A stretch of DNA of 64,000 bases from Trichoplax adhaerens (lineage: Eukaryota; Animalia; Placozoa). Where the stretch lies: assembly GCF_000150275.1 (NCBI RefSeq), contig NW_002060944.1, positions 3,724,123-3,788,122 on the forward strand. Reading direction: 5' to 3'. Numbering within the stretch: position 1 is the first letter of the stretch; every line of letters starts with the position of its first letter. Shown piece after piece: positions 15,199-49,580 of the stretch. The translations under genes were made by a program, and so were the position numbers. The notes below the pieces were generated by a model that saw only the letters and a list, made by a program, of their open reading frames with translations, made no database searches and was not told where the DNA came from.

Positions 15199-22655
<7,457 letters not shown>

Positions 22656-23100
22656 TTTGGCTGCCTGTAATAATATAAAGTATTATTATTATTAGATATA
22701 GCATTAACATCAGTTTACATTTACAGTCCTCTTGACTTTACAACGGAATAGAAAGCATCAATAAATTATTAAGTCTAGAATGATGTAGGGTAGTTTTCAA
22801 TGGATTTAAGTAGCATCGACTAGGAGGCACAGATGTTGACCAATGTAGCCGTTTATTCAACTGTATGCAACATGGTGATTACTAGGTGGACAAGATTACT
22901 TTTGCATGATGGAATAGTCTACATTCTAGCTTGATTCTTGCTGTAGACGATCCACGTTGAAAACACTATCCCCAATGTATTGATCGCAAGCCTATAGCAA
23001 CATATGCGATGGCTGAATGACTGTCCATCGATGGCGCATTACGAAAGGCCATAATACCGGATTAGGATATTTTAATGAAGCTAGAAAGTTCATTATACAA

Positions 23101-23138: not shown

Positions 23139-24780
23139 ATTAACACTGTGCATCATCCTGTCGGCACGATGAGAACTTGAATTAGTTTGTTGCAATTTGC
23201 AAAGCGATCATCTCTCTACTAGTTGGTTGGGTATGATTAACAAGACGTTTGTAGGGTGATGGAAAATAGCCATGGCTATTTTTCATTCTTCAACGATATG
23301 ATAAAATGATTGACAAAATGAAAAGGATAGCCACTCACTGACTACTCATCCTACCGGCAAAGCTGTAGTCTACTCGACTTTCCTTCCGATTCTTTTTGTG
23401 AAAATAATGCGGTAAGAACAGGAAAAAATAAAGTACAGCCGTTCTTCAATGGCATGAACTTATTGATCGACTGTATCGATCAGTTGAATTCAAAAAGTGT
23501 CTTAAAATACAAGAAATGAGAAAATGGCTTTCCCCCCCCCCCCAAACTTACTATAGCTTAGCTTAGACTCATTGTCATTGGTGGCGTATAATAAGGCTGA
23601 TCGAAGCTGATTCAATTATCAAGCAAGTATGGAAATGGATCTACAGGTAAGGCAAGTTGGTGGCCTGTGGTGATGAGAAATGGGATGATTTGTTGCAATG
23701 CTACGAGTATTTTACACCTAGACTAACTTCTCCATGGATGATTGGAATATTGAAAAGGTAGAATTGGAGAAGGGGAAACGCTCCGTTCTTGCTGGATGCT
23801 ATTATTGAACAAGTATTGGAAGATTTGTGGTTGCACTGAGTCAATGCTTGATGATCAAATCAAGACAAGACAAAGTGATTGCAGTGATGACTTGATGAGT
23901 GAAAGCATCGCCAGTCTGATGGCAGTTGTTGATTTTCTTCCATTCCACTGGTTAGGATGATCTTTTAGCGTAGCGACATAAAAAGCGAAAGGAAGTTGAT
24001 GATGATTGGATGTTGGTGAATTGAATGATGTTGCAATGACCATCAAGAAGGGGAGAAAAAACTGATGATGGTCTTGTATCAACATGAATTGGAAGTAGGC
24101 ATAGGGAGGGAATAATATATTCTCCTGGCAAAAGGATCGAGTACAGTAGAAAAAAAAAGAAAAAAAGAAGTCTACTCTGCAATGGATTACCGTATCCTAC
24201 AAGTGGAGTAGAACGTTGTAAATGGAACTGGATCGATGGTTTCTCCAACGACGGTAATGGAAGATTCTCCCAAGCAGACTTTGGTCAATTTTATCTGTCT
24301 CTCTTCTTCCTGTATTACCTTAGCCAAGTGGAAATTGAAAAAGATGAAGATGATGTCAAGCTGAACGATTGGATACCTCGATCGCTTAATCCAAATGTGT
24401 TTGATTGACTTTGGATTGAAAATGATCCTCTTGCAAACAAACAAGCAGGACCAAGACGTAGGCCTGCAGATTGGATGATGGCTATGATGCTTAGGATAGT
24501 TCCTCTTGGCCTGGCCAATCAATGGATACTATATTAGTGCAATCACTCACCACTGGATCATCAACGATAAAATCGATGCAATTTTTCCCAGCAAATAGAC
24601 ACCAAGAAAGATGGAAGAATTGATTTTTGCGATGGTTGCCACGGCGGAATTGAATTGGAAATCAATTAAGAGCTTGAAGAGCTTGGAGGAAAGAAGACTC
24701 AACGTCACTCGCTTCACCCACCAGTATCGCTTGACGCGCTTGCTTTCGTGCCTGGATAGCCAGTGGTTGTAGGCGGCGAT

Positions 24781-26725
24781 CGCACTGTAGTACAGTACCA
24801 ACTTGGGGGGGGGGGACTGTAGTACTGTACAGTGTACAGTACATACAGTACAGTACAATACCAACGTCTAGTACTGTACAAATGCGTTGTTTTACAGTAC
24901 AGTACTGTAAGACTCTGACTCTAGTACTGTAAGACAGTGGACTCTACAGTACAGTGTACTGTACAATACCAACGTCTAGTACTGCAAATGCGTCAACGGT
25001 CCTCCACGCCGTGGTGTGTTGACCAACGGTAACGGTCAGCCTACACTCCTACAGTCAATCAACGGAGCCAAATGGTACCGTAACGTACTGCGGACGAGAC
25101 TGGCCGTTCCGGTCCGGTCCGGTAGCATGATGATACTGTACGATAGGTAGTCACAGTGGACTAGGCTACGTACTGTACACTGTACACTGTACAGTACAGT
25201 GATACAGCGGACACCGGTCATGTAGCGTAAAGCCATGCAATGGCTTCGAGTTCGCTGACATCAGTTCTGCTCCGACCATTTCTTCTTCACCATACTGACC
25301 GATACTGCTCCGTTTAAGTACTGTTGGCGCTACACTACACATGATGCAGTCTATGATTGAAAGCGCTAGAAAAAATATTATTCCTATTTTCTTTTCCTTG
25401 CCCTTACAGTCAGCGCTCGAGGAAAGAGCAAATCGCTATGGGTGGCATCGATGACCGATCGTGTTGATGATTTTACTACTACAGTACAGGACGGTGTTGT
25501 GGTTGTACTGTACTGTACCGCAGACAGCACTGGACTGTCCATACTGTACAGTACAGTACAGTAGTAAACAAGTACGCCGAATCTTCACCAGCGCAGGGAG
25601 GGGTTCCACGATGGGCAGAGACCCTTTTAATGAATCCAAAGAGAGGACGTTGAGATGAAAGAAACCTTTTAAACCAACCATTCAATCCTCTGTCAATAAA
25701 AATGATGAAAGCAGTCAATGTGTGTCGTGCATCACTCATTTTGACTGCCATTTTACTTTCTCTCAAGGGTAAAATGACGATTGGGACCTAGTAGCGAACA
25801 GACGGACAACTGTACAGAGTACGATCGTAGTATGTACAGTATACTGTACTGTAGTGCTGACATGGATGTGGACAGGGACTACAGTGTACTGTAGAGTCTA
25901 GACCATCAAGGTATTGAACCCAACCGAACCTTTCTCAGACCAGTACAGTACAGTGTGTTTATCTTGGCATCTACAATACAATGTCAAGAGAGATGGTGGT
26001 GTTGTGCCTTTGTGTACAGTATTGTTGATATCAAGTTGTTGATCATCATATCCAGTAGAATTGAATTCTTATTTTTGCCTTGGTTTATTACAAATATATT
26101 GAATACAATCATCAGCAGCATTCTTCATTCAGCATACTGCATTTTACAACACTTTGACAGGCATCATATACTATCCTGTTACAAGTACTGTAGGTTGCTG
26201 CCCAGTCAATCAATCCAATCCATTGAAGGAAATACTGTACTAGTACAGTACACTGTACTGTAAAGCCTTTTTTCCCCCACCACTTCTCTGTCCTGTCCGT
26301 TACAGTACAGTGCGCACGCTCATGATCAGTGCAAAGTAGAGTACAATGCATTGAGTGTACAGTACAGTGCTGTACTGTCGTACTGTACTGTATACAGTAC
26401 GTACTGTACTGTACAGTGTGGACGGGCTAATTTCTATGATTTTGGTGCAAACAGATGGATTAAATTTTTTTTTTTTTTTTGACAAATTTTATATCAGTCT
26501 ATAGAAAAAGAGTTAATTTACACGAATCTGTCATCAAAATTTACGTACGACGTTTACTTTCATCGTAATTATTAATTAAAGTACCCGAGACGCTACAGTA
26601 CAAAGTAAAAATGAAGGTTTTGTAAAGTGAACATCCAAGGAGTCGCCGCTGTACAGTACAATGGACTGTGCTGCAGCAAGTTTTCACAACACGGACAGTA
26701 TCAATCGATATAGAGTACAGTACGC
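24781..26725. promoter_or_regulatory. Divergent promoter region (PKN / membrane-protein gene) with several TACAG/TACTG motif islands
   Basis: Dense clusters of TACAGTA/TACTGTA/TGTACA at ~24781-25205, 25470-25570, 25810-25955, 26230-26420 and 26590-26725, with locally raised GC, lying between two head-to-head genes. The promoter role is inferred from position. Confidence 0.65.
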
Positions 26726-27070: not shown

Positions 27071-30000
27071 ATGGCATACTCACAGCTAATGTTATTTGCT
27101 TACGGTAAGTGTTGCATATTGTAGCAATGTGACCTACTTGACAGTAAGATGAACCCGATCTATGGAGAGCATGTCCTTTGCCGCTCTATTTGCATACACA
27201 ACGCCATAGTACAGTCTATCGTAGTCATCGGACGTAAGGAACAAGTATCGCCATAGCGCTGTCGATCTCTTGTTGCAAACAGTAACAAATATCCATAGTA
27301 CTGCGGGGTATTGTCTGCAAATCAAAAATTCTTTTTCGTCATCGCTTCTTCGACCAACATGTCCAACTTTATTCACTTGTTCATGACATGGTGACCAAGA
27401 TAGAAGCAAATACTTGAATGCACCATGTCTTTTGCTATACTGTAGTGAGTAAAGTGCACAAGAGGAGCAGTTTAAATGATTTTCATCCAATCATCATAAC
27501 ATCATTAAACCGATGATTTAAACCGATTGCATTGATTGAACGGCAGAAACGATATCCAGTACGAGTACAGAAATAGAAAAAAAAAAAAAAAAAAGAAGAA
27601 TGAGAATGATAATCCAGTCTACGCCTTGATTAAACTATTGTTACTAGAATCACGTAGCAAAAGCCAATTCAGTAATGATACAGACTGCATTGCACATGAT
27701 TATCATGGTTACAACAGCACACGGCATTGCTTTTTGACGGCAATTTGATCAAGTATGCAGACAATTGATCAATTTACAAGAAAAACGCCTATTCGGCCAT
27801 CCTTGTAACCTTGAATGGATATGGATACTGTAGCACTTGTAGAAAGAGACTCGCACTACTTGGCCTACTCCAACGACAGCACAACCCTACCTGTAAATAT
27901 CAATGGAGTACATATTGAACTTGCTTGCCATCTTCCTAACGGAAGATATTGTGATAAGTAAATAGAAAATCTTCAGTAATCAGCCTGTCATGCAAAAAAA
28001 AAAATATTTAGACATGAAAACAAAGCGGCCAAGATTGCGTATCAACGGCTACTATCGCGCATCATACAGTAGGTTAACATTGGTAGTGGACGACTCAATG
28101 GGACGATTGACCAATGAACAGTATCGCAGTAGACTAGCGCCGGTACCAGTCGGTAAGTCGTACCGATTTTGCGCACTCTCTCCACTTGCAGCGCAGTACA
28201 GGATGGTGCCAGGTCGGACTGTTCTGGACACCGTATAGTAGTGATGGGAATGAGTTGGTTTTGCCAAGGATTAAGGGAAAAGCACTTCAACAACAGTCTA
28301 TCTTGCAGCGGATGGGTTTGTCCTTTTAATACTAGCAAATATTGTTACGACTCTATCCTAAGATGAACCATCTCCAATGGAAAGGTAAAACATCAGCCAA
28401 GATAGTGCATACTGTCTGTACTCTCCTTGAAAGCAATCCTTGCACTAGCTAGCCAATAGCGATTGCTGACGCTCGCTTAAATGATCATGATCAATGGAGA
28501 GCTCAAGTCGTTAGCAGACAACATGCCTACGAGTACAAGTACAAGTATATTTAATTTCAGACATGAATCAATCTTGGGTAGTATCATCCATTCATAATTC
28601 AACGTCATCGAGCACATTGTAGAGTTGTAGTTTCCATTTTGATTCCGCCACTTTGTAGGCTTCTTTGCATCAAATGGACATAGGCAATATGTATAATTCT
28701 TACTTCTTATCAATATACGCAGCCTGCCTTGCCTCCTTATTGCCTTGTGCTATGGCCAAATATAAAGCTCTTCCTCGCTGTAAGTACAGCATTCAATAAT
28801 ATGTTTCTAATTGAATATTAATCGCTGTAATAATTAATGATTTATCTATTACTGTAATTTAGCGTGTCTTTCTGATGAAGCTATATTTGCACCTGTAATG
28901 ATATTATTCACTGTAGCTGTACTGTACAGTAGATAGAAAAGCTATCCATTACTTTTCATCCTAAACATTGTTAGAGTATTCCGTCAACAAATTTACAAAA
29001 GACCTTTGCCAATACTGTACTATAGTACTGTACGTTGAGTCAATGCATTGCCAAAGAGGAAATAGCGATATCTATTCATCATGAATGAGATACTATGATT
29101 CTCATCATACAAGAAAATACTAATACATATTTTATTTTAATGCCAATTTATTTTTGACCATAGCTCGACGCGATGGTGATGATCTTGGTAAGCAACTGCT
29201 CTAATATAAGAAATTACCGTATCGATGTTCCATTCTGTAGTAACTGCATACGGTACACAAATCATAGGAGAATGTAGTCTTGAAAAAAAAAGTATTTTTA
29301 CCGTGTCATGCAAAAATCAAAAGTCTAAAAGATCCGACAATAATTCCAGTTGAAATAGTTTACTTGCAATGTGATAACCACGTTTATAAATTAATTTATA
29401 ACATAATAGAATCAGTATCTGCGCATTTGTGTGTCAATATTCTAATGGATGCTAAAACACTTTTCTTCTATCTTTATTCAAAGGCGATTCCAGTGTAACT
29501 GCTATTGTAATAATATGCGCAGCCATTTCTATGTCAATCATCGTAGGCATATTAGTCTACGTCCGTAAGAAGTGCTGTATGGACTCGAAGGGCTCAGAGG
29601 GAAACATTTCAAATAGAAATCGCTCTGCTAGTACTCAAAATTTGATTGAAGGTAACTAAATTTTTAAAGCATACCTAAGGTGCTTAGTTTTATACAGTAC
29701 ACATGGCTGAAACCGAGTAGGATAGATCATCTCTTGGTACTAAAAGGCTTAGCAATAAAGCCTCTTTTTTCGCATGTATAATTTAAAAGTAAACAATATT
29801 AATCTTGAAATAATTTGGGTGTTAATGATATATTTTGTTATAACATCGTAATCCTTGAACTGTAGTTCTCTTCTCTTTTACGATCTAATAGCTGATGAAG
29901 TTGGAATAGTAGTGCCTGATGATGGCAATGTTGATAACTTGACTGCAACATCACCTGGCGTTTCTAATGATACATCCAATGAAGCAGAGCCCAACAACAA

Positions 30001-30226: not shown

Positions 30227-31984
30227 CTTTGAAAGGCTTTAACTTTACGACTCAAGTCAATTGATATTATGTGGAACATGGAGATTCCGTGTCTCATAAA
30301 GTTCTACGGTCTCTCTATTGTGCTAAAGTCTTTAATTAGTTATTCTTGTTTTAGCAGTACTTGATATTTTAAAAAAAAATTTTGTAATTTACCAATTGTA
30401 AGGGTAAAGCAATGCAGTAAATGTTTTAACGACCGAAAAAATCCATATGTGCATATACAGTAACTTTTAATGCATTAGTCAATAGAGTTTTTTTGATTCA
30501 ATCAATCAATCGGTGGTAATGAATGGATACGATGCTGCACTAAAGAATATACAGTACATGTATCTGCAGCATTTTTTTAAAGCTGTTGTTACTCTAGATT
30601 CTGGTATGTACTAGCTGTTGTACAATTTCCCTTTATCATGTAATTAAATTATAATACTTTATTAATAGTATCATTTAGATGTAAAGTATTTATCTGTTAC
30701 TGCTATGCTCGAAGCATCTTATTATGCAACAGTGTTGTTACTACTGTAGTATTTCGTTTACTATATTATCCAATTGGTGACTCCTGTAAATTTAAATTTA
30801 TTCGCACACTTACACTCGACAAGCTGTGATAATCCTGTTATTTTACTATACACCGTAACTAGGTAATTTCACAGGTTAAAAATTAACTTTCGTAAAAAAT
30901 CAAAGTGGTATGCTTTCTTAATAATTACAATTGGAAAGATAGGTCTGGATGACCTATAAAAAATAATTGTATCACAAATAAAATAAATCACGTTAGATTA
31001 TGTACAGTACTTATTGAGCGCTAATTGTTTGCATCAAGAAACGTCATCCTAATTTAGCACCAGGCTATTGCAAAAGTGAGGCAGGCCACATTGAATTCAT
31101 GATACGAGCCTATCATTTTGCGTGCAACAGACGGAATGATAGTAATTTACTATGAATTAAAATTGCACCACAATGAATATTCAACATAAGGTTAACTTCA
31201 TTTACTTTAAATCTATCAGTTTTATGAGAGTGAATGATTAATGATTGAATATACTATAGTGACAAGCATCCTTATTGAGTAGACTGCAGTTACTAAACAT
31301 TCGATACTTGGCTAGATTCTTTGGGATACAACTTATGAAAGCTAGTATTTCCGCTACGCGTACAAAAGGCAAGTTTAAGTCGGTGTAATGTACATTCCTT
31401 AAACACATTAATAAGTACATTGCAGATAACTATATTATATACTTATAGAAGCAATTTTGAAATTACAGCCAATTCCATGAATAATACTTGATACTGATTG
31501 AACGATACTTATAGTCAGATAATAAGGAATTAACTAAAGTTATAAAAATGTGTCATAAAAATAGTAGTACAGTCCTTATAATCATAATCATTGTTAATAT
31601 AGTAGTATTGGAGTTGATTTTTACTGAACTCAACACGTTAACAGCTTAAAGAGGGCTTCAAATCTTACCTTGTTAATGCGTATATTACTGTACACGATAT
31701 ATTAGTAGTATAAGCAAGTATGTACTATACGTGCTGAAATAGACTATAATATTATTTCTATTAACACCGATTATATTCAATCAACACGAAAATTTTGATT
31801 GGTCTTTCCTACCAACGACAACAGACAATCAGAAGACACTGCGGAAACATACCAGTTAATTGCAAGTTGTACATCGTAAGTTATATAGGGATAAAATTAA
31901 TATGCTCAAATTATTATCATTTCGTCCTGTTATTAAAAGAATTTTCATTTTACTTTTAGTACCGTCTAAAAAACTTTTTATAAA

Positions 31985-34900
31985 TTAGGTCTCGCTTTCT
32001 CGGCTTGATAATTTGATTTCTTGAATTGCACTCATAATAGCCTCAGTAATATCATCGAACACAGGGATCGATGCACGATTTGCAATATCTGATAAATAAC
32101 TCCTTGCTCGGTTGTAGTCAAGTAAACTTCTACCAGTAACCTAGAAATTAAGTCAGATATATCATTTACCTAGCACCTAAATGTGTACTCGTACTACATA
32201 AGAAAATACTTGTTGCATTCAAAAATTTTTGTTCTGTTACTAGATATTCAATACATTATTTTACGCACTGTAACTCCATCTAGAAGGTTTCCGTCGGTAA
32301 AATTTTGAATACAGAGAACAACATTCCTACCCAAGCCGATATAGTAAGCGATCTAATAAAACAATACAATAATTGTCACAACACGTTACTCTCATACTGC
32401 ACAAACATAAGGCTTGTTAAAATTTCAAACTTTTCGGCTACCTCAACCATCGACGCAACACATCGACTCTCATTCCCGATAAAGTATAGCAAAAGTCTCG
32501 AATGTTTTTTTGCTTCAGCCTCAATACCAAGAAATTTCATCGACCAGTCAGGTAATTGCGGATTAAAATAGGAAATTGCCTGTTTCCTGTAAAAAATTCA
32601 TAAAAGACGATAAAAATTCTCATAATCGACTATCAAAACAATAAGATACATGCCTACAAATTACAAAATTCACGGTAGATTTACTTTAGCAACGGAATAG
32701 CTACATCTTCTCTCCATGTTGATCGACCACAGCTGCCACCAAGAAATATATCGCGTTCGAAAACCGATTCATCCTTTTCATGTAAAATGTCTGGACCACC
32801 ATTAAACAACCAATCTAAACAGATCATCCTCTTTGTAAGTCATTTGAAAGACAATACGACAAAGTTAAAGCAAATGCTCTACAGAGCACATGTTGTACAA
32901 ATATCGATCTTACTTATAAAATTTGTAGTTGTGCCGCTAACAATATTAAATAGAGAATTCAGATAATTTAACTGCGGTTGCTGTATAATCCAAAATGTCC
33001 CGAGTTAGACATAGACACAATTCAAAGTTAGCGACTTAGATTAAAAATTTTTACATCTAAATAAAATATATATTATTACGTCTGAAAGCATTTCTGTTAG
33101 TAAGCAGCAAAATTCTTCGAACGACATTCTAATCTTAGAAGGATCGCTTTCATACAAGCCCGACAACATTTCTACATTATCCTGCGATAACGCCTTTCCA
33201 CTAAAAGCTTTGTAGGCTAGAGCAACCTAAAATTTAAATATTTTAAATTAGGAAGAGGTATTTCACGGTTTCAGTTCATCAGCGTAATACCGACCTCATT
33301 AAGTGTTAACTTTCCCGAACCACCAGAATTGTAGTCATCATATTTTTCCTTGGCAGCTCTAATGAAAAAGTAAAGTAAAGTATAACAAATCCAACCCATC
33401 ACTTTTACTGATAAATTTGGGGGCTCACTAATCATAACAATCATACTTCGTAACTCAAGAGTTATATAAAGATGACTTACATAAAACTATCATCTACAGA
33501 TATATCCGCGAGTCTAACTGGCTGAGCGCCATCATCGGTCGTTAAGTTGGTAATCTTGGTTCCAACTTTAATAACCTGAATAAGAAGCGTCGCTGTTTAG
33601 TTACCAAATTGGAAATAACTTTGACATATATGTTAACAAAGTATCTATTCCAATTAGCCTTACATCTTTATATATAATTATATATAGTAAGTTTTGATAA
33701 TTAATTTTTATTCATAACCTTAGCACAACAGTGAATTGCAGTTTCTATATCAGTAAATACTGGAATATCCACTCTTTCAACCGTATCTCTCAAAAATTTT
33801 CGACCACGATTAAGGTCTTCCTTCTCACTATTGAAGTGTGTGTCCCGTATAAGTAAATAGCATCACTCTAAAGTTAATAAAAGTCCTAAAAATAATCACC
33901 TAGCTGAAAGTGTCTCGCCAGCTATGGTTGTTTCGGTTTCAGGCAATTCTCTAAGAACTAATATGAGCGGCCCACCACTACCTGGAAATGACAAATATAA
34001 AAATACAATATAAATTTATCAGGCTAGCAATATTGATTTTAATAAAATTACACTGAGACGACATAAAGCAAGCAAATACAATTTTACCGGCTACATAAGC
34101 TGCTTCCACCATTGAAGACAACCCTCTTGTCGATTCCTCAATTACAAAGAGAAGTAATTCTGCAGTCTATACCAAAAATGTAATCAAGATATAGATTAAT
34201 ATGTAAAATAGATCCTTGAAGTATTAATCATCTACAGAATAAAGTGTATTGATAATTGCTAGTAGTAAGAGTTATTAAAATTGCCTCAATTAGTTATTGA
34301 CTGTGAGTAAGAACCTGTTTTGCTTGTTCTTCTACTTCTATCAATGCCGGAAACCATTCTTCAACTTGCTACTCGGTATCATGGCAAGGAATAGAGGAAA
34401 GAGTAATTATTTTAAAATAAAACTCGATGGCTTATAAACTTTTACAATAGCACAACATACATTGCAAGATATTATAAAAATGAAAGACCTACCGGGTTAA
34501 AGTAAGTAATACAATGATCTTTAAGTATTGGTATAGCAATTTCTTTCCTCCATGTCGTTGGGTTGCATGCTCCCCCAAGAAACACTACTCCAATAATATC
34601 CATAAAGGATACAACATAAGGTTGTGCATTGTTACATTATAGTATTAAATGGATAATAATTAGTACAGTATGCAGTCTTGATAAATTAGCATCATTATGG
34701 TACCTTGAACATTCGGGTGATCTAAAAGTGAAATAACATCATTAAAAATAATTACTAAAGCAAAAAGTGCTGATGGCAAGATTTGTATCCTAGACTCGAG
34801 TATACTGCGATTGGCGATCACAGGTAATGTAGTCTTACTTGTTCTTGGGCTATGCTTTCGATTTACAATTAAGCTTCCTTCTTTATTAGCAAATGTTATA

Positions 34901-36974
34901 CTACAATAACGAGCAGAAAAGCTAAAGTTTATATATAAACCGAATATCCTGTGATTTTATCTAGTGCAGTTTCGACGAATATTGTAATATAGGAGTATAT
35001 TCGAATGCAATTACGATATAATGTTTATTCTATATATATACACTATAGCATCTTATGGCTAATACCGGAAAATAAATAATATCGGAACTATCTAAATTGA
35101 TACGGTATTAATTACCAATTCAGATAGTTCCGATATATTTAATCAAAAGTTTAAATTATAGTGCTGTAAAATAAATGGGAACTATCAATTAGAAATAGAT
35201 AAATTACTAAAGTATACAGATATGAAAATATAAGAGAATTTATATTAATAAGTGAGTGTACAAATTGACTAACTTTCTTTCCTGATATTCTTTCTTCAGT
35301 AAGGATGCAAAAAATGCAAACTGACCAAATGTTAAACTATTAAGATCGGTATTCTGGCAACATTCATGAGCAGACAATAACATCTCTTCAACTACGCAAT
35401 TTAATGAACAAAGTCCGTTAGTAAGAAATTAAAAGTAATTCTAAGATTACTATTTAACGGTAAAATTTTGTTCTAAAGCAATATCACTGACTATAATTTC
35501 TGCATCATAACATTGTAGGTTAAAGTAAGGGGAGTACATAAAATTTGCTACATCATTTATGTTTCCATTATTAAATGCTACCGCATTCTCGTCACATTGT
35601 ACAAAGCAATCAATTATAGTTTCATTTTTTTAGTAATGGTAGAATATCGATGTAACTTGAAGTCATTTAGTGTGGAATCTTCATAATACCAAAGAAACAG
35701 TAGGTAAAACTGTCGTATCGTAAGATTTTTTGTAACCGATATTTGTGCTTTGCGGTAGAAAAAACATGAGTTATCTTTAGGTAGTTATTATGAATTCATA
35801 ATTTAAAAATTAGAGTATTTCATAGCGTTGATAGCTACACTATTCCAGGAATTTCATGAAAGGCGATTATACTACTGTAATTTTGATATCTGAGCGCGTT
35901 TAGATCATCTTTCTCGAGAATTTGCTTTCGATTTGAAACAATTACACGAATAGTTATCAATCTGGTTGCAGAGTATGCAGCTGTTCAAGCTACATTGATA
36001 CACGCGTACAGTATGATTATAATATTACTGCCTGCCATAGCGATGGTAAAATGAGTCAACGCCAACATATGCCATATTTGATGTAATTTAATTGCAGTAT
36101 TGACTAGCAAAAAATAAGTTATCGCGAACAATATCAATTCATGCACATTGAAAAAGGTAAAACTGCACCTTGAGCTGTAGAAGGATATAACTGGATAGAA
36201 TTGAAGGCTTTTTTAATGTCATCTCTATAAATTTGTTGACTTGCATGGCTGAAATCGTCAAAGAGTATTAACAAATCCCTATGAATTGTAAGAAAAAATG
36301 ATTAATCTGTAGCAAAATATTCAATATCCTCAGGTTGTATGCATCGAAGATGACAGTAAATTGAACAATTCTCTTGGCTATTGTACTGTAGATCCATTTT
36401 AAAATAGCGATTTCAATTTATCGTAGTATAAGCAGAGACAAAATGAGTCAATCGATTAGGAAAGTATTGAGCTATCACTAAAGTAGCTGGAGATAGGAAT
36501 GACTGGTTATTCAAGACTACTGGATATTAAGCAATGTATTGTCCAGTGGTAATTTAAGGCTCTTTTTTTGCCGTTGCAATATTGTTTTACCGCCATAAAT
36601 AAATTTACCATAGCGTGTTTTAACGCTATCCATTGGGTTAAAATGAACTGCTGTATTACCGGTGATCAATTTGATCGTACAGCGCCTATACCGTATACGA
36701 CAATAAAGTCATTGGATTTAAAATGATACACTAATTGAGCAAGATATTCAATGTAACCCATAGTTGTTGTTTACAAGATATCCATCTTACGACACGGTGT
36801 CGTCAGTAATCAAGGATAATAACACAAGAATGCAGCATGAATTGCATCATCAATATTCCGTTCAAGATGACTATACCTAGTGACGCTACCAAAAACTAAT
36901 AGATCACCATGCTCATTTCTGTTGGTGAGCACAGTCTCGACCTCTTCTGTATCTTGATGGAGTAGGTTATCCAT
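31985..36974 (-). CDS. raw: Raw/OLRN-1-like protein: two degenerate EF-hand pairs alternating with two nucleoside 2-deoxyribosyltransferase-like (Raw-repeat) domains (18 exons, ~569 aa)
   Basis: Exons 36974-36877, 36278-36169, 35391-35274, 34900-34839, 34721-34704, 34584-34493, 34368-34315, 34166-34088, 33981-33900, 33827-33719, 33575-33481, 33358-33295, 33226-33080, 32980-32914, 32814-32685, 32586-32442, 32352-32269 and 32140-31985 are phase-consistent and total 1710 nt. Repeat 1: VFLGGACNPTTWRKEIAIPIL...YFNPQV..W...TRGLSSMVEAAY...DLNRGRKFL. Repeat 2: IFLGGSCGRSTWREDVAIPLL...YFNPQLPDW...SRCVASMVEIAY...DYNRARSYL. The supplied ORF track misses this gene. Confidence 0.88.
35073..35141. other. 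~70-nt fold-back hairpin in raw intron 3
   Basis: ATATCGGAACTATCT (35079-35093) is the exact reverse complement of AGATAGTTCCGATAT (35122-35136). Pairing extends outward (TAAAT/ATTTA) and inward (AATT, GGTA/TACC). Confidence 0.85.
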
Positions 36975-37089
36975 TGGATAATGATCAATTTTATCATCAG
37001 CAGGACAAGCAATCGATGAAACTATTTGTGTATTTAGCGATCAATTTTTTGCTTGTTTCCTTGGTAAAGCAAAATTGTTTGAGCCTGCT

Positions 37090-38230
37090 GTTCTGTACAG
37101 TACTGTACTTGTACGTTTGATAGTTCAATATAGCGATGTTGCAATGTACTGTACAGTACAGTACATGTACTGTACGTATGGACACTGTAGCTAAACATTG
37201 GCGATTCTTCGGATGGACGGACTTTTCTTGACCCAGACGAGGCCGAAAATGTGGCACCGTAGAGTAGTGTTTTTCTTAATTACTTCTATTGTACTAATTC
37301 AAAAACACTGGAGACATTTATAGAACTGTTTTCGAGGCAGTACTTTTTGGGTAAAGTAAACGTTGAAGTTGATAGGATTCAAGTATAAAGGATTTCGAGA
37401 AATCATTCCATTCAGAATCGAATATTATCATACTGACGCAATAATCAGTACAAGTGTTTGGAACAGTGCAGTACTGCTTCTGCAAGGCCTACAGTAAATG
37501 CGAATCGCCCGTTGGACGGAGTTTCCAGTACCGTTTAGTTAATTATTAACAAATAAATGGTAATATTTCCTATTTTATTACAGTACTGTACACTGTACAC
37601 TAGTGTAAAGTACTGTACAGTACAGTATGTCACATGACGATGTACTGGATGTATCCGTCCGTCACAATTGGCTAAAATTCTACCGCTACCTTTGACATCA
37701 TCCATTACTTCCTTGTTTTTAAATAAGAAATGTTCCCTCTTTGACATTTGAAAGGCTATAAAAAGTGCTATTCTCATAATATAAGTTAGTTAGCGATGTC
37801 GTGCTACTCTGTGATTCTCTGTGTTTCTTCTGATAGCATTTCCAATCATTCTCCTTTCTCTTTATAAATTAAATCAACTTTCTTTCTCTGTATTATTTGT
37901 GTGTGTAAAGGCTGACGTATTGGACACAAAACATTCCACTGTATTGTACAGTACGTCAATCAGCAGAGCAAGACATGCAATGGGCAAGCGCAGTAAATGA
38001 CTTGCTCGGTTTTCACTACACTGTAGAGTACAGTACTTTACACTGTGTAAGTGTGCATGGACTTGGAGAAACGCAGTCCTGTACTGTACAGTCCAACCCC
38101 AAATCTTGTACTGTACCAGTGTAACGCCATACAGTATAGTACACACATATGCCAGTTACACCAACATGCCACACACTCATTGTACACTCAATGTACAGTA
38201 GACACTGGCAGTGTATTGTACTATCAGAAG
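37090..38230. promoter_or_regulatory. Divergent promoter region (raw / roquin) with TACAG/TACTG motif islands
   Basis: Clusters at ~37090-37190 (e.g. GTACTGTACAGTACAGTACATGTACTGTAC), 37575-37650 and 37935-38225, between the two head-to-head ATGs (36974 on -, 38709 on +). Confidence 0.65.
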
Positions 38231-38708
38231 AGAGTGCTGGCTCAGCCCTAGTCAGGCTACAAGCAAGAAACAAACAACGTTATAAAAGTTTGCTGCCGCG
38301 ATTTGGAGCAATATTCTACCGTAGAAGGGAAGCATAGTGGCATTTGGCCGTGTTATTCTAGTCCTGTGTCCAAATCAGTTGTTAATACAGTATACGCAAG
38401 TTGTAGTAGTCTGCGGTAGACAAGTACCATTGACGTACAATTTTGGGACAAATTGTTTTTCCAGCGGGGGGAATCCTATTTGGCTGATCTTTCCTAATGT
38501 CATCGATCGACTTTGGAAGTTACGAGTAACCGCAAAGGAAACACAAGTTGTATTCAAATTCTTCTTGGTCTTAGGCGGTGATCTTGATCCAGACTGCTGA
38601 TCAAAACTTGTTCTCCTATTTTACTTGGATCTGGAATTCAAATCGTGCTCATTTTTGGGGAGCAGTCCGCCTCCTTCGTCATACTTGACCAAATTACCAA
38701 CGAGAAAC

Positions 38709-41700
38709 ATGGAAGAAAAAGGAAGTAAAGGAACCACTCATACCTTGATCAGAAATTTTCTTATTCGTTGTAGTTTTTGCCGTAAAAAATTTGGCGACTG
38801 GAACAGTTCGGCACCGTACACGTTTGGCTGTGGGCATACAATTTGTTCCAACTGTTTGGCTTCAGTCGAAGATGACTGCTGTCCTGTTGACAATTATAAG
38901 TCGGCGATATCGGTCAGAACGCTGCCTCCCAACACATGTATATTATACTTGATTGAAGTGGCTGTACCGGCTAACGCATACGAAACGATGATTTCAAATC
39001 ATGGCATTGAATATTATCAATCCATGATTTTGATGGAAAAATTAGTTTGTGTGTTGAATCCCAATGCTTTCAAGAAAATTAATAACCAAGTCAAACCGAT
39101 CAACTTGGCGAAATCTTTAGAGCGTAAATTAATTTCTTTGGCAAGTTGTCAGCTACTTGAAGAATTGGGCAGGAAAGATATTATCAAGTATATTCGAAAA
39201 CTAGGCGAAAGAATTTTATTAGAACTCATTTTACTAATGAAGAGTAGACAACAACAAGTCAATGAGTTATTTGCTGCTTTGCGTTCTCTCAAGTGTCAAC
39301 TTTTTGGACCCAAATTGCAAGAAATGATTATGCGTTTATTATACAATATCATGAATGAAGGGGAAAGAATATCCAGAAAAACTTTGACCGCCTACCTCAT
39401 CCATCAGTTAGATGGACGTTTTAAAGAAGAATCGAAAAATATTTCCAATACATCCATTGGTCGTGCTATTCAGTTACTTGTGCGTGGCAGTTGCTTTGAG
39501 GTAAGTTTTCCAACTAGAAATTCATCTTGAAGGAGAAGAGCACCTCCATGACATTTTTCTGTCGGACATGGAATATGTTATTCTGTACAATATCAGTAAA
39601 CAACTTCCAACGTCATAGTGTCGCTAGCAAATGTTGATATGTACTATACACTACACTATCCAAATCACCATGATGTTTTGTACACAATATCATTGGTATG
39701 GGTCACGTTCATCATCGTCTTGGTGTGCCCCTTTTCACAGCAGTACTGTACTGCATGTATAGAAAAAGTCATTTGTACTGCTCTCTAGCACGGTTCCGGG
39801 TACATTACCCGTACTGTAGACACTACGAATGGACGTGCACCGGTGCGTAGTGTGACCGGCATCTCGTGCTTTTTTTTGGGGGGGGGGGGGAAGGAATAGA
39901 TGAAATCGAGGTTTTCTCCTACTAAATCCAACGATTCAAACCGATATGTGTCTTGCTACTTTTACCGTTATGACATCGATAAAGCCTATGTAACATGTTT
40001 TGGTGAAATGATTATAGTTAACACTGCTAACTTTTCATAGTTAATGGATGAATCGAGGTTTTCTCCTACGAAATCCAACGATTCAAATCGATATGTGTCT
40101 TGCTACTTTTACCGTTATGACATCGATAAAGCCTATGTAACATGTTTTGGTGAAATGATTATAGTTAACACTGCTAACTTTTCATAGTTCATGGAATTTT
40201 TTCAACTTCGATATCTTTATTGATCAATTTTTATTTATATTTGTATTTTTAGGTCATTCCTAGAGACAAAGGAGGATCGCTATTAAAGTTAAAAGACGAG
40301 GTAAATACAGTGCCGTGCTAATTCCTTTTTTGGTAGTAGTATGACTAGAGTACAGTAGTTGATAGGTGTACGGTTTACTAGTGATCTGCCTGGATGGAAT
40401 AGTTTCGAATTTCTTACCCATGTTGTCTAGTGGATGATTCTAAAGGAGTAGATGGATCGCTAGTCGAGATTGGAAGAAAAAAATTTTTCAGAACAACAGT
40501 ACAGTACTTAGTACTGACGATAGCCAGGCGTTACAGTAATTCTGTATACTGTACAATACTGTCACTACTGTACCCTACAGTATATATCTACACTACAGTA
40601 CGGTACAGCAGAATGCCGTACGTTGAAACTATTCATTATTATTTTTTTTTATTTTTATTTTTGAATGCTCTTTAACTGTTCAACATCAGTACGACATCAA
40701 CAACATGATACGCAATCATTCTAATTTAGATTACAGCACTGTAGTTTGAGGATATTGGCTGATACTTTGTCGCTCCAGAATAGGCCACAATTGACTCAAT
40801 TCATTCTTTAATATTTATTTGAATTAAATCGTAAGTTATACGCTTGGAAATAAAATAGAGCAGACTGTAAGAAAATACTCTATGGAAGGGGGATTTGAAT
40901 TAGAATTTTTACTGTTTTGTTGACAACAGTACAGTAAAATGCATTCAGTACTTTGCGATAAAGATACAGTAAGCACGGATTTTGTTACGACTGTTCTTAT
41001 AAGAAGTTCAGTTTGCAAAAATAAATAATTTATTTTTAGATTTTTTGTTTTGTTACTGTTTTATAACATGACTTAGCTATACTGTACACAGTGTACAGTG
41101 CAATACACTACGTACTGTAGTATTGGACTACTTGACTATTTAATTCCAAAAAAGTCGAATATACCAATTGCTCAACTTTAGCTCTTAACAGAGTGGACAG
41201 AGATCTCATTTTATACGCGTATAAATCAATTTATTACAGTGAAATGAGACATTCATTTTGGAATTCAAAGTGATGTCTTTTCGCTTGGTTTCGGACTTTC
41301 ACTTCCGTACTTTTCAACCGAGCATACCAAGTACTCGGGGGCACTTGTGCACTTTTTGGTTTACTGTACTCGGTACCTGTATCAGTAGCCCACTGTACTG
41401 TACATTGTACAGTACAAATTAGTACCAGTATACTGACTACAAACCATAAATGACTGGAATCGCAGTTTTTAACTAGTCTTCAACCCTTGACGGCCTGATC
41501 ACAGTCTACGGTACTCTACTAGACCTGGAGATAAAGTTTATTAAAGCTCTGAATTCGTTAGACAAAATAGTACGTAGGCCGACGGTAATCATTACAGTAC
41601 TGGCAGAGACTCTTTTTCAATTGCCCTGCAGGGTAATCGTAGACTATTATAGTAATAACAGTTTGGTGCTGCCGCAATCGATCAATTCGGTCATTTTTAT

Positions 41701-43010
41701 TTTTTTCCATACGTTAAAAAATACATTTTAGTAATCTAAATATTTATGCTTAATTTTAGATTCGAAACTATGAGCAGTTTCGACAAAAGCTAGATGCTGC
41801 CGTCATTAAAGTGGCTTTTGAATACGATGTGCACCTGAAAGTGGAGAAATGGTCATTAATTCTTTATGGATCAACGGATAAAAGCCAATATTTGAATTCC
41901 ATGATAGACAAGGTAACGTTTCGATCAAGTTTTATAAAATTGAATGCATTGTTGAAATCTATAAAAAGTGGTAATAACATTATACTTACAATTAGTAAAC
42001 TTTTAATTTATATTGAGAACATGAACTTTGATGATTGCTTTAGTTGCGACCAGCTTGCCTGTTAAATAGCCGGCTTAAGCATATTTCCTGCACCCTGAAT
42101 GAGGAAGTCGGTAAACCGTTTCAAGCTTTAAGAAAATTAATACCACAATTTAGCAGAATAGAAATGCTAAATCCCGGTATGCAATCTACGATATTGATAC
42201 ATAAAGTAAAGTAAACTACAGCATGTCGATATCGCACTACAACAACATTCATACTGTACTGTATGATATTGTCACGATCAGTCATACGAACAAATATAAC
42301 AAATGAGTATTTTTCCTAATTTTAATGGGTTATTGTATTTTCTTCTCTATGCAGATGACGAATATGACCTAGCAAAGGTCAAAGAGATGTTAGAAGTTGC
42401 CGTAGAGATACTATATGCGCTTCTAGAATACTCTGAGGTGAGTTAAATTCTACTTATTTAATAGCCATGGCTCATCGTGCATGATTTACTGTATACAGTA
42501 GTAGGGTAAATTTTTATTCTGCTTTACAATTGGAATATGTGAAGCAGGTGTAGATATACCGTATACATAACGGCTTATGCAACGTGGTACTATTAAGCTC
42601 TACAACATGACAGAATAATGGCTTTATTTATTATAAACTTTATTATCAATGTAATTATATTCTTACTATTTTCCCCATATAAAGCATTTCGGCAAAGCTA
42701 AAGATCAACGGCAAGAAAATGCTCCCACTGAGTAAGATATGCTGTATTCCCGTACAATGCATAAAAGTCTAACTTTTTAGTAATTTTTATTTTAACCTTA
42801 CTTTGTAGTGTTGTTGTAAATCCACCGGATATTATCACTTTGAAACTGGATGATCCAATATCTTTTAACACACTCGACAATGCTGCTGATTTGTCGAGTG
42901 ATGAAAGCGTAGATGGTACTGATGACCTAATCATCTCTCCTGTTCCGTCTACACCTCTTAAAGATGGAATTAATCGTGCTGTAGGATCAGCTGTGGCTAT
43001 TAGTCCATAA
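38709..43010 (+). CDS. RC3H: Roquin-family RING/ROQ protein, short form without CCCH zinc finger (7 exons, ~485 aa)
   Basis: Exons 38709-39500, 40253-40300, 41760-41912, 42044-42176, 42355-42437, 42685-42731 and 42809-43010 are phase-consistent and total 1458 nt. The Roquin-type RING is CSFC...GCGHTICSNC...CPVD, with Asp as last ligand. The ROQ core is CQLFGP...ISRKTL...TSIGRAIQLLVRGSCFEV...SLLKLK...WSLILYG...NSMIDKL. Confidence 0.9.
39899..40195. repeat. Near-identical tandem duplication of ~147 bp in roquin intron 1
   Basis: AATCGAGGTTTTCTCCTAC...CTGCTAACTTTTCATAGTT occurs twice back-to-back with only a few mismatches/indels, just after a poly-T/poly-G run at ~39869-39890. Confidence 0.95.
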
Positions 43011-44849
43011 GTTAATTAATGCGATGTATTAATGAAGTCTACTATACAAGTATCAGCCGGTAAAGTATCGTTACTGGGTATTGTGGTTAAAGTAACTGAA
43101 AAAGAAATTCATATTAAGAAGTGAAGCATTACTTATATACCATTGCTGGTATTGTAATACCGCATTAATCATACATGTCTACAGATATCGATATTTACCA
43201 ATCCCGGTATAAAGCGTCAGTCAGATTGATTAATGACACATTGTAAAGTTCTTCATTTGACCAGTTTTGGATATGGTAACAGGTATTATAGCGTATAACT
43301 TTAATATGCTAATAAAGTGGCAAGTTTATGTTAATTATTTAGGAATACTGTAATGATAACTACCACTTTATAAGCCATTACTGTACAGCCAGGCAATTTT
43401 AAAAGCTGTTTAACTCGATATGCTAATATTATATACTAAATTCTGATTATCGTCAATAGACACGAAAATTCGTATTGTAGACTACAGTGACTGTAGTTAT
43501 TAATTAATCTCATTAGCACAATGTTTACATTCTATAGATTTGTAAACATTGGTAACTGCATTCAGAACTAATTTACCTTGCAACCTATATGTTAATGATT
43601 ACATAGTTAGCATCAACTGGCATAGAAAATGGGCCACCTTTTACGACTGTTCAATTGTAAATTTACCTAATGTTGCATTTGAAATTTTTGCGATTTAGAA
43701 TAATTATAATCTTGATATATTTACAATTTTGACCCGGTATCACTTGACTTTACGTCGTTTTAAGCCATGTAAAACGCGCATGGATAAGGATGTCGAGTCA
43801 GTTTATGCTAATCCAAATGCGGTAGCAATATATTTAAAACGTGAAATTAGTTCATATTACTACTCTAGTCAGTACGGTATGGTACTGTACAACAAATACG
43901 TGGGCATTATAGCATTTTTCGTTGATAAGAACTATAAGTAAATACAGTATCTCATACTGTCTTACTCTAATAAGAGATTATTCACTGATTGGAACGGTAC
44001 AGTGCTGCAATTAAAAAATTCAATACTGTGTTATTTATCTATAACATTAGTAGTTCGTATCTAAGAACGTTGCGTGGTACTGTAGCTTATTTATTATCTT
44101 GTATAATGTATATTCATTCCGTATGTATTATACTTTGAAGGTATTGATATGCTTAAATGTTAAGATTGTTCACTACTAATAAAGGAAAACATACGTATAT
44201 CGAATTGCATAGGTCGACGCCATCTTTGTGGTTGTAATAAGTTATAAAGATGAATTTTGTTGTCCTGAAAAGTTAGCAGTGAAATTGATACCGAATTTCA
44301 CGTATCGCACATCAGAAATCGCGATTATTGATACATGCCTTTTGTACAAAGTCATATTAACACACCTAAGCCAGAGATAAATTACAAAGTGTACGCAATG
44401 TTTGAAGTACACACTGACTACGTGCATAGACATGATTTGACGAATTATATCTTGCATTCGTATGTTATCTTTTGATGCTGAGACGTCAATTGTACGGGCA
44501 ATTTCGGTTATAACCTATAGAAAGAAAAATTCTGTAATTTACACTACATCTTTATTTTAAAGACTGTTTTCTTCGCAGTTGTATTATGCAGCACAATATA
44601 AGTCTAGCGTACGAGTATTACACAGACGTTGACATGCGTCTTGCTTTAAAATCGCATCTACGGTTGAATATTGACCAGAAACCATATACGCATGCTAAAT
44701 TGGTTGTACTACTATTTGCGCCTAATATAAAGATTTATGGTTACAACAGCTACGAATTTCATTTATAATAATGGTCTCGCAATTAAACAGTCAAATTACA
44801 TACCAATTGATAATCAACATTCTTTATCATCCTACAATGATTGAATCAT

Positions 44850-48188: not shown

Positions 48189-48289
48189 TGATGATGCAGA
48201 CTACCGTCGAGCACAGTATTAAGGATACCTACCGATGCATGGCATCATGTCCATATCAAGTAAGTACTTGTGGTCCATGACGGCCCTAC

Positions 48290-49580
48290 GTATAGTACTG
48301 TATCTCGACTAGAATACTGTACTGTATGTTAGAATCTAGGATTGTCCTCTGCAGCACTATACTGTACAGTATGTCAGGAAGTCGGTCTGGCAGTCAACTC
48401 AGAAGCTTGCAGAGGGTTTTGGTTCGGTGAAAACTGGTACAGGAATGAAAGAATTTGCAGTGCAATATTTATAAAACAGCTTTGCATAAGCGTGTTATGT
48501 ATGATAGATAGACTGGTAATGTCTAGGAATTAGGGCAGACATATTGCATAGCTGCCTAACTGAGAAGATAATCGTATAATACTAATACCGTAGCTGTATT
48601 GATACGTTCACTAGTAATTTACTAATATGTATGTAATATATATTTATATCACTTGTGGGAAAGGCAACCCAGAATAAAGAAGTGGACTCCACGCATTAAG
48701 CTACTTTGCAGTGTCTAACCGAGTATTGCATGATTGACCTAGGGTCGCGATAGAGAACATAACGAAGAGTAGCATCGATAATTATTATAATTATTAGTAT
48801 AGATCAGTGTCGAAAATTTGTATTAAGGTAAACAGTCGATATACGTAAGGTAACAACTCGATATTGATGGAGGAGGCAGTGAAAGATGCTAGAGCACAGA
48901 GTCTACCTATTGCATACTCGATTACTCATTCTGTGTACTGTATACTGTATAGAAAATGGTTTTCTCAGAGGGTAAAGGCGGTTTTGCTGTAAACTACTAA
49001 CATGACAATAAATCAATCGATGTTGAGGTAGTACAAGTAAAATAAATACTAAGTAGATTCACTTTATCAAGTCGTCTGCTCATACAGTTGCAACAATTTC
49101 GTTTCTATTCAAGCAGGCAAATAGCGTACTCAATCACTTTCTAAAATGGCCTCTCAAAACATCCATAGCCACTCTTCGTCTTCCAACTATTTCCATTATG
49201 GTTCTTTAGTACCAAGCATGATCACATGACATTCTCGTGGAAGACAAAATCTAGGCATCGTCATGGACCTCCACAATCCCGAACCTCTAGAGAATGATAC
49301 CTCTACGCTCTAGCAATATAGGACTCATGCTGCGGGATTAATTAATATAACCTATATGTCGTTTACCGTATTGATAGTCGATCATTTTGCAAAATGATCG
49401 ATTCTAATTTTCTACAAGGTAAACGACATACTGTATATATATAACATATAGACATAGCAATTGAAAAAGATAGTAGTACCCATGGTAGTATCGTTCAGTA
49501 TGGACAGTGCTGTGTCGTACCTTGGCATATAGTACTTGTACTGGTCTACTGTTCACTTCCGTGTACTGGGTACAGCCGTA
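48290..49580. promoter_or_regulatory. Divergent promoter region (PSMD5 / DPP7) with smaller TACAG/TACTG clusters next to each gene start
   Basis: Clusters at ~48290-48375 (TAGTACTGTA, TACTGTACTGTA, TACTGTACAGTA) and a weaker one at ~49495-49575, with a CACTTCCG ETS-like site at ~49554. Confidence 0.55.

What the first reader, a model, noticed from the sequence alone, without database searches (positions are those of the whole stretch)
31985..36974. Raw/OLRN-1 homologue looks like an EF-hand-gated N-glycosidase: 2x[EF-hand pair + NDT-like domain], candidate catalytic Glu kept in both halves
Seen: an internal duplication. Each half has a helix-loop-helix pair (half 1: LFDDFSHASQQIYRDDIKKAF ... 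SLTFGQFAFF; half 2: YDDYNSGGSGKLTLNEV ... MSFEEFCCL) followed by FLGG.C...TWR...YFNPQ...LLF/LLY...R..SMVE.AY..G.G..LVL. Established: nucleoside 2-deoxyribosyltransferase/DNPH1 (Rcl) fold enzymes have an N-terminal [YF]LAG/FLGG strand, an xxNP/P motif and a helix with the nucleophilic Glu followed by xAxxxGKP. Drosophila Raw restrains JNK signalling and nematode OLRN-1 represses p38 signalling, but I know of no assigned enzymatic activity. Inference: SMVE supplies the nucleophile, so Raw proteins may be nucleotide-cleaving or second-messenger enzymes, conceptually like TIR NADases, regulated through EF-hands. This would be an ancient signalling system.
Basis: partly seen in the sequence, partly recalled or inferred. 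Interest (0 to 1): 0.76.

Follow-up and report, generated by a model that had tools for sequence, protein, structure and literature searches.

The report
Placozoan Raw cyclic-ADP-ribose hydrolase
This is the Trichoplax copy of Raw/OLRN-1, a gene family shown in 2026 to destroy the messenger cyclic ADP-ribose in fly and worm; the placozoan protein likely does the same, keeps the residues for a second predicted active site that insects lost, and carries calcium-sensor-shaped domains that probably no longer bind calcium.

Summary
RNA-type contigs confirm an 18-exon, 569-aa minus-strand gene (17 of 17 introns). It is Trichoplax Raw, built as 2x[EF-hand pair + PF15891 NDT-like domain]. The central inference, that Raw is a Glu-dependent second-messenger glycosidase, is right but already published: Raw and OLRN-1 hydrolyse cADPR to ADPR (PMC13455253, June 2026). 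The half-1 SMVE Glu (E205) maps to the essential fly E422. The half-2 Glu is not family-wide: 59 of 118 homologues have it, and 0 of 30 named arthropods. Ca2+ gating is unsupported here: none of the four Trichoplax loops is canonical, and fly Raw was constitutively active. Two points are absent from the paper text I could search. Its 'dimerization domains' are EF-hand pairs, canonical-looking in unicellular relatives (Diphylleia, Pigoraptor). And Trichoplax keeps a mirror-image second catalytic set. The scan reported the same reading earlier on another genome (e1-7318246). Verdict: new member of a known family, modest interest.

The parts
31985..36974 (-). raw/olrn-1 orthologue, 18 coding exons, 569 aa (= TRIADDRAFT_53313 / TrispH2_009332). 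Exons: 36877-36974, 36169-36278, 35274-35391, 34839-34900, 34704-34721, 34493-34584, 34315-34368, 34088-34166, 33900-33981, 33719-33827, 33481-33575, 33295-33358, 33080-33226, 32914-32980, 32685-32814, 32442-32586, 32269-32352, 31985-32140
   Evidence: joints; frame, GT-AG; database names
35276..36884 (-). EF-hand pair 1 (aa ~31-108; the paper's DD1); both loops non-canonical
   Evidence: model topology; structural matches to EF-hand clusters TM 0.72-0.80; loops
34704..34721 (-). 18-nt microexon before catalytic domain 1
   Evidence: table 5c
33573..34707 (-). NDT-like (PF15891) domain 1, aa ~135-275. F137, C142, E179, E205 serve site A; D242, R245, F249, D252 serve mirror site B
34315..34368 (-). 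exon carrying E179 (fly E396), codon 34330-34332; missing from database model TRIADDRAFT_53313 (P0003) but present in spliced contigs
34104..34106 (-). codon of E205 (SMVE of half 1 = fly E422), invariant in 118 of 118 homologues
33080..33494 (-). EF-hand pair 2 (aa ~302-376; the paper's DD2). Loop 316-327 has N at position 1 and G at position 3 where D and D/N are expected. A331 corresponds to fly A532 (raw dcp-1 site)
32015..32755 (-). NDT-like (PF15891) domain 2, aa ~419-560. D526, R529, Y533, D536 serve site A; F422, C427, E464, E490 serve mirror site B
32442..32444 (-). codon of E490 (SMVE of half 2); E in 59 of 118 homologues, 0 of 30 named arthropods

Best explanation
The gene encodes the placozoan Raw protein, which likely hydrolyses cyclic ADP-ribose to ADP-ribose at a predicted active site shared between its two NDT-like domains, with the EF-hand pairs probably acting as a scaffold and not as a calcium switch. 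Shown here: the gene structure, the 2x[EF pair + NDT-like] layout, and all eight residues that the 2026 paper names in fly Raw (F137, C142, E179, E205, D526, R529, Y533, D536). Shown in fly and worm only: the activity, the need for both domains, and in fly the essential Glu pair. Inferred by analogy with DNPH1/NDT: E205 attacks the ribose C1 as nucleophile, E179 acts as acid/base, R529 of the other half holds the pyrophosphate, and F137 in place of the NDT Tyr admits a 2'-OH. Inferred: the protein is a fused version of an NDT-type homodimer, so the mirror set (E464, E490 with R245, F249) probably forms a second working site in Trichoplax (about even odds), which arthropods have lost.
For: Orthology: 341 relatives at E<=1e-5, many named raw, about 35-45% identity over most of the length. 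Residue mapping: in three fly-order Raw proteins the spacings F, C+5, E+42, E+68, A+178 equal the published 354/359/396/422/532, and D, R+3, Y+7, D+10 equal 946/949/953/956 in the two of them with a complete C-terminus. Trichoplax has the same catalytic spacings. Site A (both Glu + Arg + Tyr) is kept in 117 of 118 homologues. Activity: Km 20 nM for cADPR, no NAD hydrolysis, loss of activity on substituting E396 or E422 and in R949C and Y953N, and OLRN-1 also active. Fold: AlphaFold2 model pLDDT 84.9, pTM 0.85. Best matches are NDT-family chains (4MCJ Z 13.0, rmsd 2.8, 124 aligned; 6EVS 10.6; 6QAI 10.2; MilB 9.7), with the best TIR at 9.9. DNPH1 has an Asp80/Glu104 pair and a site built from both subunits. 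A single-domain relative with a complete residue set (P0251) models as a symmetric homodimer: score 0.56 against best control 0.29, runs agree in 100% of contacts, pLDDT at least 87. That mark was reached by 21 of 30 solved pairs and 0 of 23 single chains. Its E205-equivalent touches the Y533-equivalent of the other copy. Against calcium sensing here: no Trichoplax loop matches the EF pattern.
Against: No assay of the Trichoplax protein exists in what I read. Drosophila Raw itself was not retrieved, so the mapping rests on spacing in Eurosta, Bactrocera and Haematobia proteins. The source of cADPR in placozoans is open: the placozoan immunity survey has no occurrence of 'SARM' and no genome was held to search. 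Direct superposition of E205 on the NDT nucleophile was not obtained. The profile alignment puts it on the invariant NDT Glu but is not significant (probability 0.3%, E 0.21). The mirror site has F249 where site A has Tyr, and it is far less conserved (27 of 118). The homodimer pass may come from likeness to solved NDT dimers and concerns a relative, not this protein. Foldseek on the whole model gave nothing at E<=0.001 and ranked a plant TIR first.
Confidence: 0.72

Rival explanations
1. Calcium-gated hydrolase: Ca2+ binding to the EF-hand pairs, mainly loop 316-327, would reposition the catalytic domains and switch cADPR removal on or off, closing a feedback loop with cADPR-driven Ca2+ release.
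For: Both helical domains are EF-hand pairs. Unicellular relatives have canonical-looking loops: Diphylleia P0164 and P0174 match the pattern at 4 of 4 loops, Pigoraptor P0056 at both loops of pair 2. The fly loss-of-function site A532 falls in the exit helix of EF-hand 3 (Ala in 106 of 118), and deleting the helical domains lowers activity. The paper says Raw regulation is unknown. The Trichoplax loop keeps S5, G6 and E12.
Against: The Trichoplax loops match the pattern at 0 of 4. Among 118 homologues the pattern hits loop 3 in 20, loop 4 in 1 and pair 1 in none; a strict D-x-D/N-x-D/N/S-G...E loop occurs in 2 of 117. Fly-order proteins have Gln at position 12 and no Pfam EF hit, yet fly Raw is highly active and constitutive.
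Confidence: 0.13
2. Single-site enzyme as in the fly: only site A works, and the mirror residues are a relaxed remnant or structural.
For: Site A is nearly invariant (117 of 118), while the mirror set is patchy (both Glu in 48 of 118; with Arg and Tyr/Phe in 27 of 118). F249 replaces the Tyr, and fly Y953N is inactive.
Against: Trichoplax keeps seven of eight mirror residues exactly. Annelids (Helobdella, Ridgeia) and a hemichordate (Ptychodera) keep eight of eight, which is hard to explain without selection. A Tyr-to-Phe change was not tested in the paper.
Confidence: 0.4
3. Another substrate in placozoans: the protein cleaves a different nucleotide (NAD+, a cADPR isomer, or a deoxynucleotide as DNPH1 does), perhaps at the mirror site.
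For: The fold is closest to NDT-family enzymes. SARM1, the cADPR source in the fly, was not demonstrated in Trichoplax.
Against: All eight published residues are identical to the fly's. Fly Raw rejects NAD, cGDPR and cIDPR. Phe instead of the NDT/DNPH1 Tyr argues against 2'-deoxy specificity (PMC11204291 passage; F in 117 of 118 at site A).
Confidence: 0.12

Closest known systems
Drosophila Raw / C. elegans OLRN-1, cADPR hydrolase (Chen et al. 2026, PMC13455253)
   Same: Four-domain layout DD1-cat1-DD2-cat2. All eight named pocket residues are present at matching spacing, and the dcp-1 Ala is conserved.
   Different: Trichoplax is compact (569 aa against about 925-1220 aa in the fly-order proteins retrieved). 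It keeps the mirror Glu pair plus Arg, where fly-order proteins have Leu for the second SMVE Glu. Its EF-hand 3 is less eroded. Activity is untested.
NDT / DNPH1 (Rcl) / MilB N-glycosidases (PF05014; PDB 4MCJ, 6EVS, 6QAI, 4OHR, 2KHZ)
   Same: Flavodoxin-like fold (Z 9.1-13.0), an acidic pair about 24-26 residues apart, and an active site predicted to be shared between two domains.
   Different: Phe in place of the strand-1 Tyr, Glu in place of the Asp, a fused pseudo-dimer with EF-hand pairs, and a cyclic dinucleotide substrate. No significant sequence match of the Trichoplax protein to PF05014.
TIR NADases (SARM1, plant and bacterial TIR)
   Same: Related fold (Z up to 9.9; SARM1 TIR 8.2) and Glu-dependent N-glycosidic cleavage. 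The 2026 paper files Raw as a distinct TIR family.
   Different: Raw does not cleave NAD. In my comparison NDT-family chains score above every TIR chain, and no TIR Pfam model hits.
Calmodulin / calcineurin B / centrin EF-hand pairs
   Same: Helix-loop-helix pair with a short beta scaffold (profile E 8e-10 to CaBP1, about 1e-8 to calcineurin B; TM 0.72-0.80).
   Different: Calcium ligands at loop positions 1 and 3 are missing in Trichoplax, and the other three loops are more eroded.

Membership tests
Raw/OLRN-1 cADPR hydrolases | Two tandem PF15891 ('Raw TIR') domains, each preceded by a helical DD domain | tested here: met
Raw/OLRN-1 cADPR hydrolases | Domain-1 F, C, E, E (fly 354, 359, 396, 422) | tested here: met
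   F137, C142, E179, E205 at identical spacing, checked through three fly-order proteins
Raw/OLRN-1 cADPR hydrolases | Domain-2 D, R, Y, D (fly 946, 949, 953, 956) | tested here: met
   D526, R529, Y533, D536
Raw/OLRN-1 cADPR hydrolases | Full-length similarity to proteins named Raw; each half groups with the same half of animal homologues | tested here: met
   quick tree with weak support
Raw/OLRN-1 cADPR hydrolases | Hydrolyses cADPR to ADPR and not NAD | not testable with these tools
   shown for fly and worm only
Raw/OLRN-1 cADPR hydrolases | Co-occurs with SARM1 | not tested
   no genome held; 'SARM' absent from PMC6321704 text, which is not proof of absence
NDT/DNPH1 family proper (PF05014) | NDT-type fold | tested here: met
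   4MCJ Z 13.0, rmsd 2.8, 124 aligned
NDT/DNPH1 family proper (PF05014) | Nucleophilic Glu at the same position as the SMVE Glu | tested here: inconclusive
   aligned to the invariant Glu of 29 PF05014 proteins but not significant; the Mytilus orthologue reaches the PF05014 cut-off (28.9 against 28.8) over that segment
NDT/DNPH1 family proper (PF05014) | Tyr-Asp-Glu triad giving 2'-deoxy specificity | tested here: not met
   Phe-Glu-Glu in both halves
EF-hand superfamily | Paired helix-loop-helix fold | tested here: met
Ca2+-binding (canonical) EF-hands | 12-residue loop with D1, D/N3, D/N/S5, G6, E12 | tested here: not met
   0 of 4 loops in Trichoplax; the pattern was typed from my recall of PROSITE PS00018
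Ca2+-binding (canonical) EF-hands | Measured Ca2+ binding or Ca2+-dependent activity | not testable with these tools
   no data found

The most novel reading that the evidence does not exclude
Raw began as a calcium-sensing cADPR eraser: a module of one canonical EF-hand pair plus one NDT-type glycosidase that worked as a two-site dimer, later fused by tandem duplication before animals arose. Unicellular relatives would still be switched by Ca2+, and Trichoplax would keep both active sites and residual metal gating through EF-hand 3. That would close a direct cADPR-Ca2+ feedback loop in a neuron-less animal and answer how Raw is regulated.
Probability: 0.15. Interest if true: 0.65.

Novelty: new member of a known kind. 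Interest (0 to 1): 0.3.

Why it matters
The family's activity is known, so the gene itself is an expected orthologue. It still offers a compact, correctly spliced Raw for structure work: both database models are wrong, and one drops the exon with a catalytic Glu. It also gives a direct test of the paper's stated open question, how Raw is regulated. The 'dimerization domains' are EF-hand pairs, so Diphylleia and Pigoraptor proteins with canonical-looking loops are the obvious places to look for Ca2+ control of cADPR removal, and Trichoplax is the place to test whether the ancestral enzyme had two sites.

Tried and rejected
No whole genome was held, so SARM1, CD38 and paralogues in Trichoplax were not searched. 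My first splice model (570 aa) used the wrong acceptor before exon 6 and was corrected from the RNA letters. One search took E466 as the mirror of E179; the correct residue is E464, so its mirror-site counts (7 and 5 of 118) are void and replaced. The search meant to fetch Drosophila Raw covered only 1191-3400 aa and missed it. Foldseek on the whole model gave no hit at E<=0.001. A sequence profile of single-domain and short relatives found no NDT or TIR structure (one hit at E 0.41). Profile-profile comparison with 29 of 30 PF05014 loci (L028 dropped, wrong frame) was not significant for either half. The language-model search with EF pair 1 gave only scores under 0.8. The careful tree did not finish; the quick tree has 40 of 85 forks open and left out two fly-order proteins with split second domains. 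Paper searches for the Pfam name or accession found nothing. The search for the TACTGTAC motif in Trichoplax papers was uninformative. Intron positions are not shared between the halves, so a recent genomic duplication was rejected.
Full report
Gene model. The finding lies on the minus strand of an AT-rich eukaryotic window. Of four runs laid on 31500-37500, three (X6, X9, X10) carry contigs that skip introns read as CT..AC on the plus strand; the fourth (X5) covers the region unspliced. Fifteen listed joints account for 16 introns, one joint holding an 18-nt microexon (34704-34721). The seventeenth intron was bridged in 3 of 4 runs. Only X10 is on record as RNA; the others are guessed. One exon matched two database proteins at 100% identity: Trichoplax sp. 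H2 TrispH2_009332 (P0002) and T. adhaerens TRIADDRAFT_53313 (P0003). P0002 reads through one intron. P0003 lacks exon 34315-34368 and mis-models 32914-32980.

Architecture. The halves align at 56 of 146 identities, E 3e-37, at a constant offset of 285. Pfam finds two PF15891 stretches above the cut-off and EF-hand_7 below it. The AlphaFold2 model of P0002 on a 110-sequence alignment has pLDDT 84.9 and pTM 0.85. It shows two helix-loop-helix pairs with short strands, each followed by an alpha/beta domain. A profile of the family hits calmodulin, CaBP1, calcineurin B and centrin over the second helical domain. The first helical domain matches EF-hand clusters by predicted structure at TM 0.72-0.80, with aligned-part scores under that tool's bar for naming a family. 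Against 48,161 solved chains the best matches are NDT-family proteins: 4MCJ (Z 13.0, rmsd 2.8, 124 aligned), YtoQ 12.1, 7M5H 10.9, 6EVS 10.6 and 6QAI 10.2. The best TIR scores 9.9 and MilB 9.7. Foldseek gave no significant hit and ranked plant TIRs above 4MCJ. NCBI already names a fly-order orthologue 'NDT-like domain-containing protein raw', and UniRef calls several orthologues 'EF-hand domain-containing protein', so both domain labels exist in databases.

What is published. PMC13455253 (June 2026) shows that fly Raw hydrolyses cADPR to ADPR (Km 20 nM) and not NAD. Both catalytic domains are needed. Substituting E396 or E422, and the mutants R949C and Y953N, abolish activity, and A532D nearly does. 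Worm OLRN-1 is active too. Raw behaved as constitutively active and its regulation 'remains unknown'. I read the abstract, Results parts 1-2 of 4, the phylogeny section, the Discussion and supplement parts 1 and 4 of 5, and ran word searches. The words EF-hand, Trichoplax, placozoa and deoxyribosyltransferase do not occur in the main text, nor the corresponding terms in the supplement text. Figures and one archive of tables were not visible and could show these. Searches for Raw/OLRN-1 with EF-hand and for the Pfam name listed no paper making the link.

Residue mapping. Drosophila Raw was not retrieved. In Eurosta, Bactrocera and Haematobia Raw, F, C+5, E+42, E+68 and A+178 reproduce the published 354, 359, 396, 422 and 532. 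D, R+3, Y+7 and D+10 reproduce 946-956 in the two with a complete end. Trichoplax has F137, C142, E179, E205, D526, R529, Y533 and D536. Counts were made on 118 homologues: the 120 listed of 341 hits minus the two Trichoplax models. The set includes isoforms and one misaligned triple-repeat protein, so the rows are not independent. E179 and E205 are invariant, and site A is complete in 117. The mirror set is patchy: E464 102, E490 59, R245 42, both Glu 48, both Glu plus Arg plus Tyr/Phe 27. None of 30 named arthropods keeps E490 (which replaces the mistaken counts). Trichoplax keeps the mirror set with Phe for Tyr. Annelids, hemichordates, crinoids, a sea cucumber and a nemertean keep both Glu, Arg and Tyr/Phe, and so do a sponge (Oscarella), a choanoflagellate (Codosiga) and Macrostomum. 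Two sites therefore look ancestral and the fly's single site derived. This is an inference from distribution, not a tested reconstruction.

Mechanism. DNPH1 uses Glu104 as proposed nucleophile and Asp80 as acid/base, in a site completed by the neighbouring subunit (PMC10483697, passages). A Tyr beside the Glu restricts such enzymes to 2'-deoxy substrates, while NAD-cleaving TIRs have Phe or Ala there (PMC11204291, passage). Raw's Phe-Glu-Glu set fits a ribose-accepting version with E205 as nucleophile. The paper itself offers two alternative roles for its two Glu residues, so this assignment is my inference. My profile alignment with 29 PF05014 proteins placed E205 on their invariant Glu but without significance. 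Single-domain relatives carry all eight residues in one domain. One of them, P0251, modelled as a symmetric homodimer: score 0.56, best control 0.29, 100% contact agreement, pLDDT at least 87; the mark was reached by 21 of 30 solved pairs and 0 of 23 single chains. Its catalytic Glu touches the Tyr of the other copy. This may reflect likeness to solved NDT dimers. In a quick tree of 88 domains the animal first halves group together and the second halves group together, with weak support. Intron positions differ between the halves. Both point to an old duplication.

Calcium. None of the four Trichoplax loops fits the canonical pattern (recalled from PROSITE). The best, residues 316-327, has Asn at position 1 and Gly at position 3. 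Among the 118 homologues the pattern hits loop 3 in 20, loop 4 in 1 and pair 1 in none. Fly-order proteins have lost the loop ligands altogether, and fly Raw is active. In contrast, two Diphylleia proteins match at all four loops and Pigoraptor at both loops of pair 2. Two metagenomic proteins consist of a single EF pair plus one complete catalytic domain. The fly dcp-1 site A532 corresponds to A331 in the exit helix of EF-hand 3, so this helix matters for activity. Calcium gating is thus plausible for the ancestor and for protists, and unlikely (about 0.13) for this protein.

Pathway context. In the fly, cADPR comes from dSarm and acts on Ask1/JNK. For placozoans I could not establish a source. 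The immunity survey PMC6321704 (passages; fetched by a recalled DOI) lists TIR proteins but never the word SARM. PMC3517549 and PMC6040629 (passages) report SARM1 in a sponge and in choanoflagellates only. PMC2213652, PMC7215899 and PMC10719852 were seen as search listings only.

Verdict. This is a real, correctly described gene and a new member of a family whose activity was published in 2026. The remaining value lies in the EF-hand identity of the 'dimerization domains', their canonical form in protists, and the mirror site. Interest 0.3.

Noticed in passing
window 24141-26722, 28920-29033, 37095-38200, 39744-43890, 48315-48371: The octamer TACTGTAC occurs 73 times on both strands against 2.24 expected (largest of 100 shuffles 9). 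It forms dense, often palindromic clusters between genes, including the region between raw and the divergent roquin-like gene. It may be a placozoan promoter element or a small repeat. One paper search was uninformative.
   Followed up: partly
window 34315-34368 and 32914-32980: The database model TRIADDRAFT_53313 omits the exon carrying catalytic E179 and mis-models another exon; the H2 model reads through intron 34722-34838. Spliced contigs support the 569-aa form.
   Followed up: yes
L002 2765-3226 (+) and 3469-5721 (-): In a Lentisphaerae MAG a single-domain Raw-like gene converges on a gene with a SLOG/LSDAT domain (PF18171, 32.1 bits, cut-off 25.4). From my own knowledge SLOG domains bind ADPR-type nucleotides, which hints at a bacterial cADPR/ADPR circuit. 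One of two bacterial loci only.
   Followed up: partly
proteins P0164, P0174 (Diphylleia rotans), P0056 (Pigoraptor chileana), P0241, P0247 (metagenomic): Raw homologues with canonical-looking EF-hand loops; the best candidates for Ca2+-regulated cADPR hydrolases.
   Followed up: partly
proteins P0196, P0198, P0265, P0267 (two named as chlorarachniophytes) and P0021 (Cyanophora): Long proteins with the two half-sites in swapped order (D-R-Y-D in the first domain, F-C-E-E in the second), and a protein with three near-identical complete domains. These suggest independent duplications.
   Followed up: no
window 38601-39530 (+), 19050-22682 (-), 45791-48200 (-), 51430-51828 (+): Neighbours: a roquin-like RING+ROQ gene divergent from raw, an HR1-repeat gene (likely protein kinase N, my reading), a PF10508 proteasome-subunit gene and a peptidase S28 gene. 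No functional link to raw is evident.
   Followed up: no
protein P0002 residues 170-320: The nearest language-model clusters are PF15891 proteins recorded mostly from tailed phages (scores 0.90-0.91). Phage relatives might degrade host nucleotide signals; untested.
   Followed up: no
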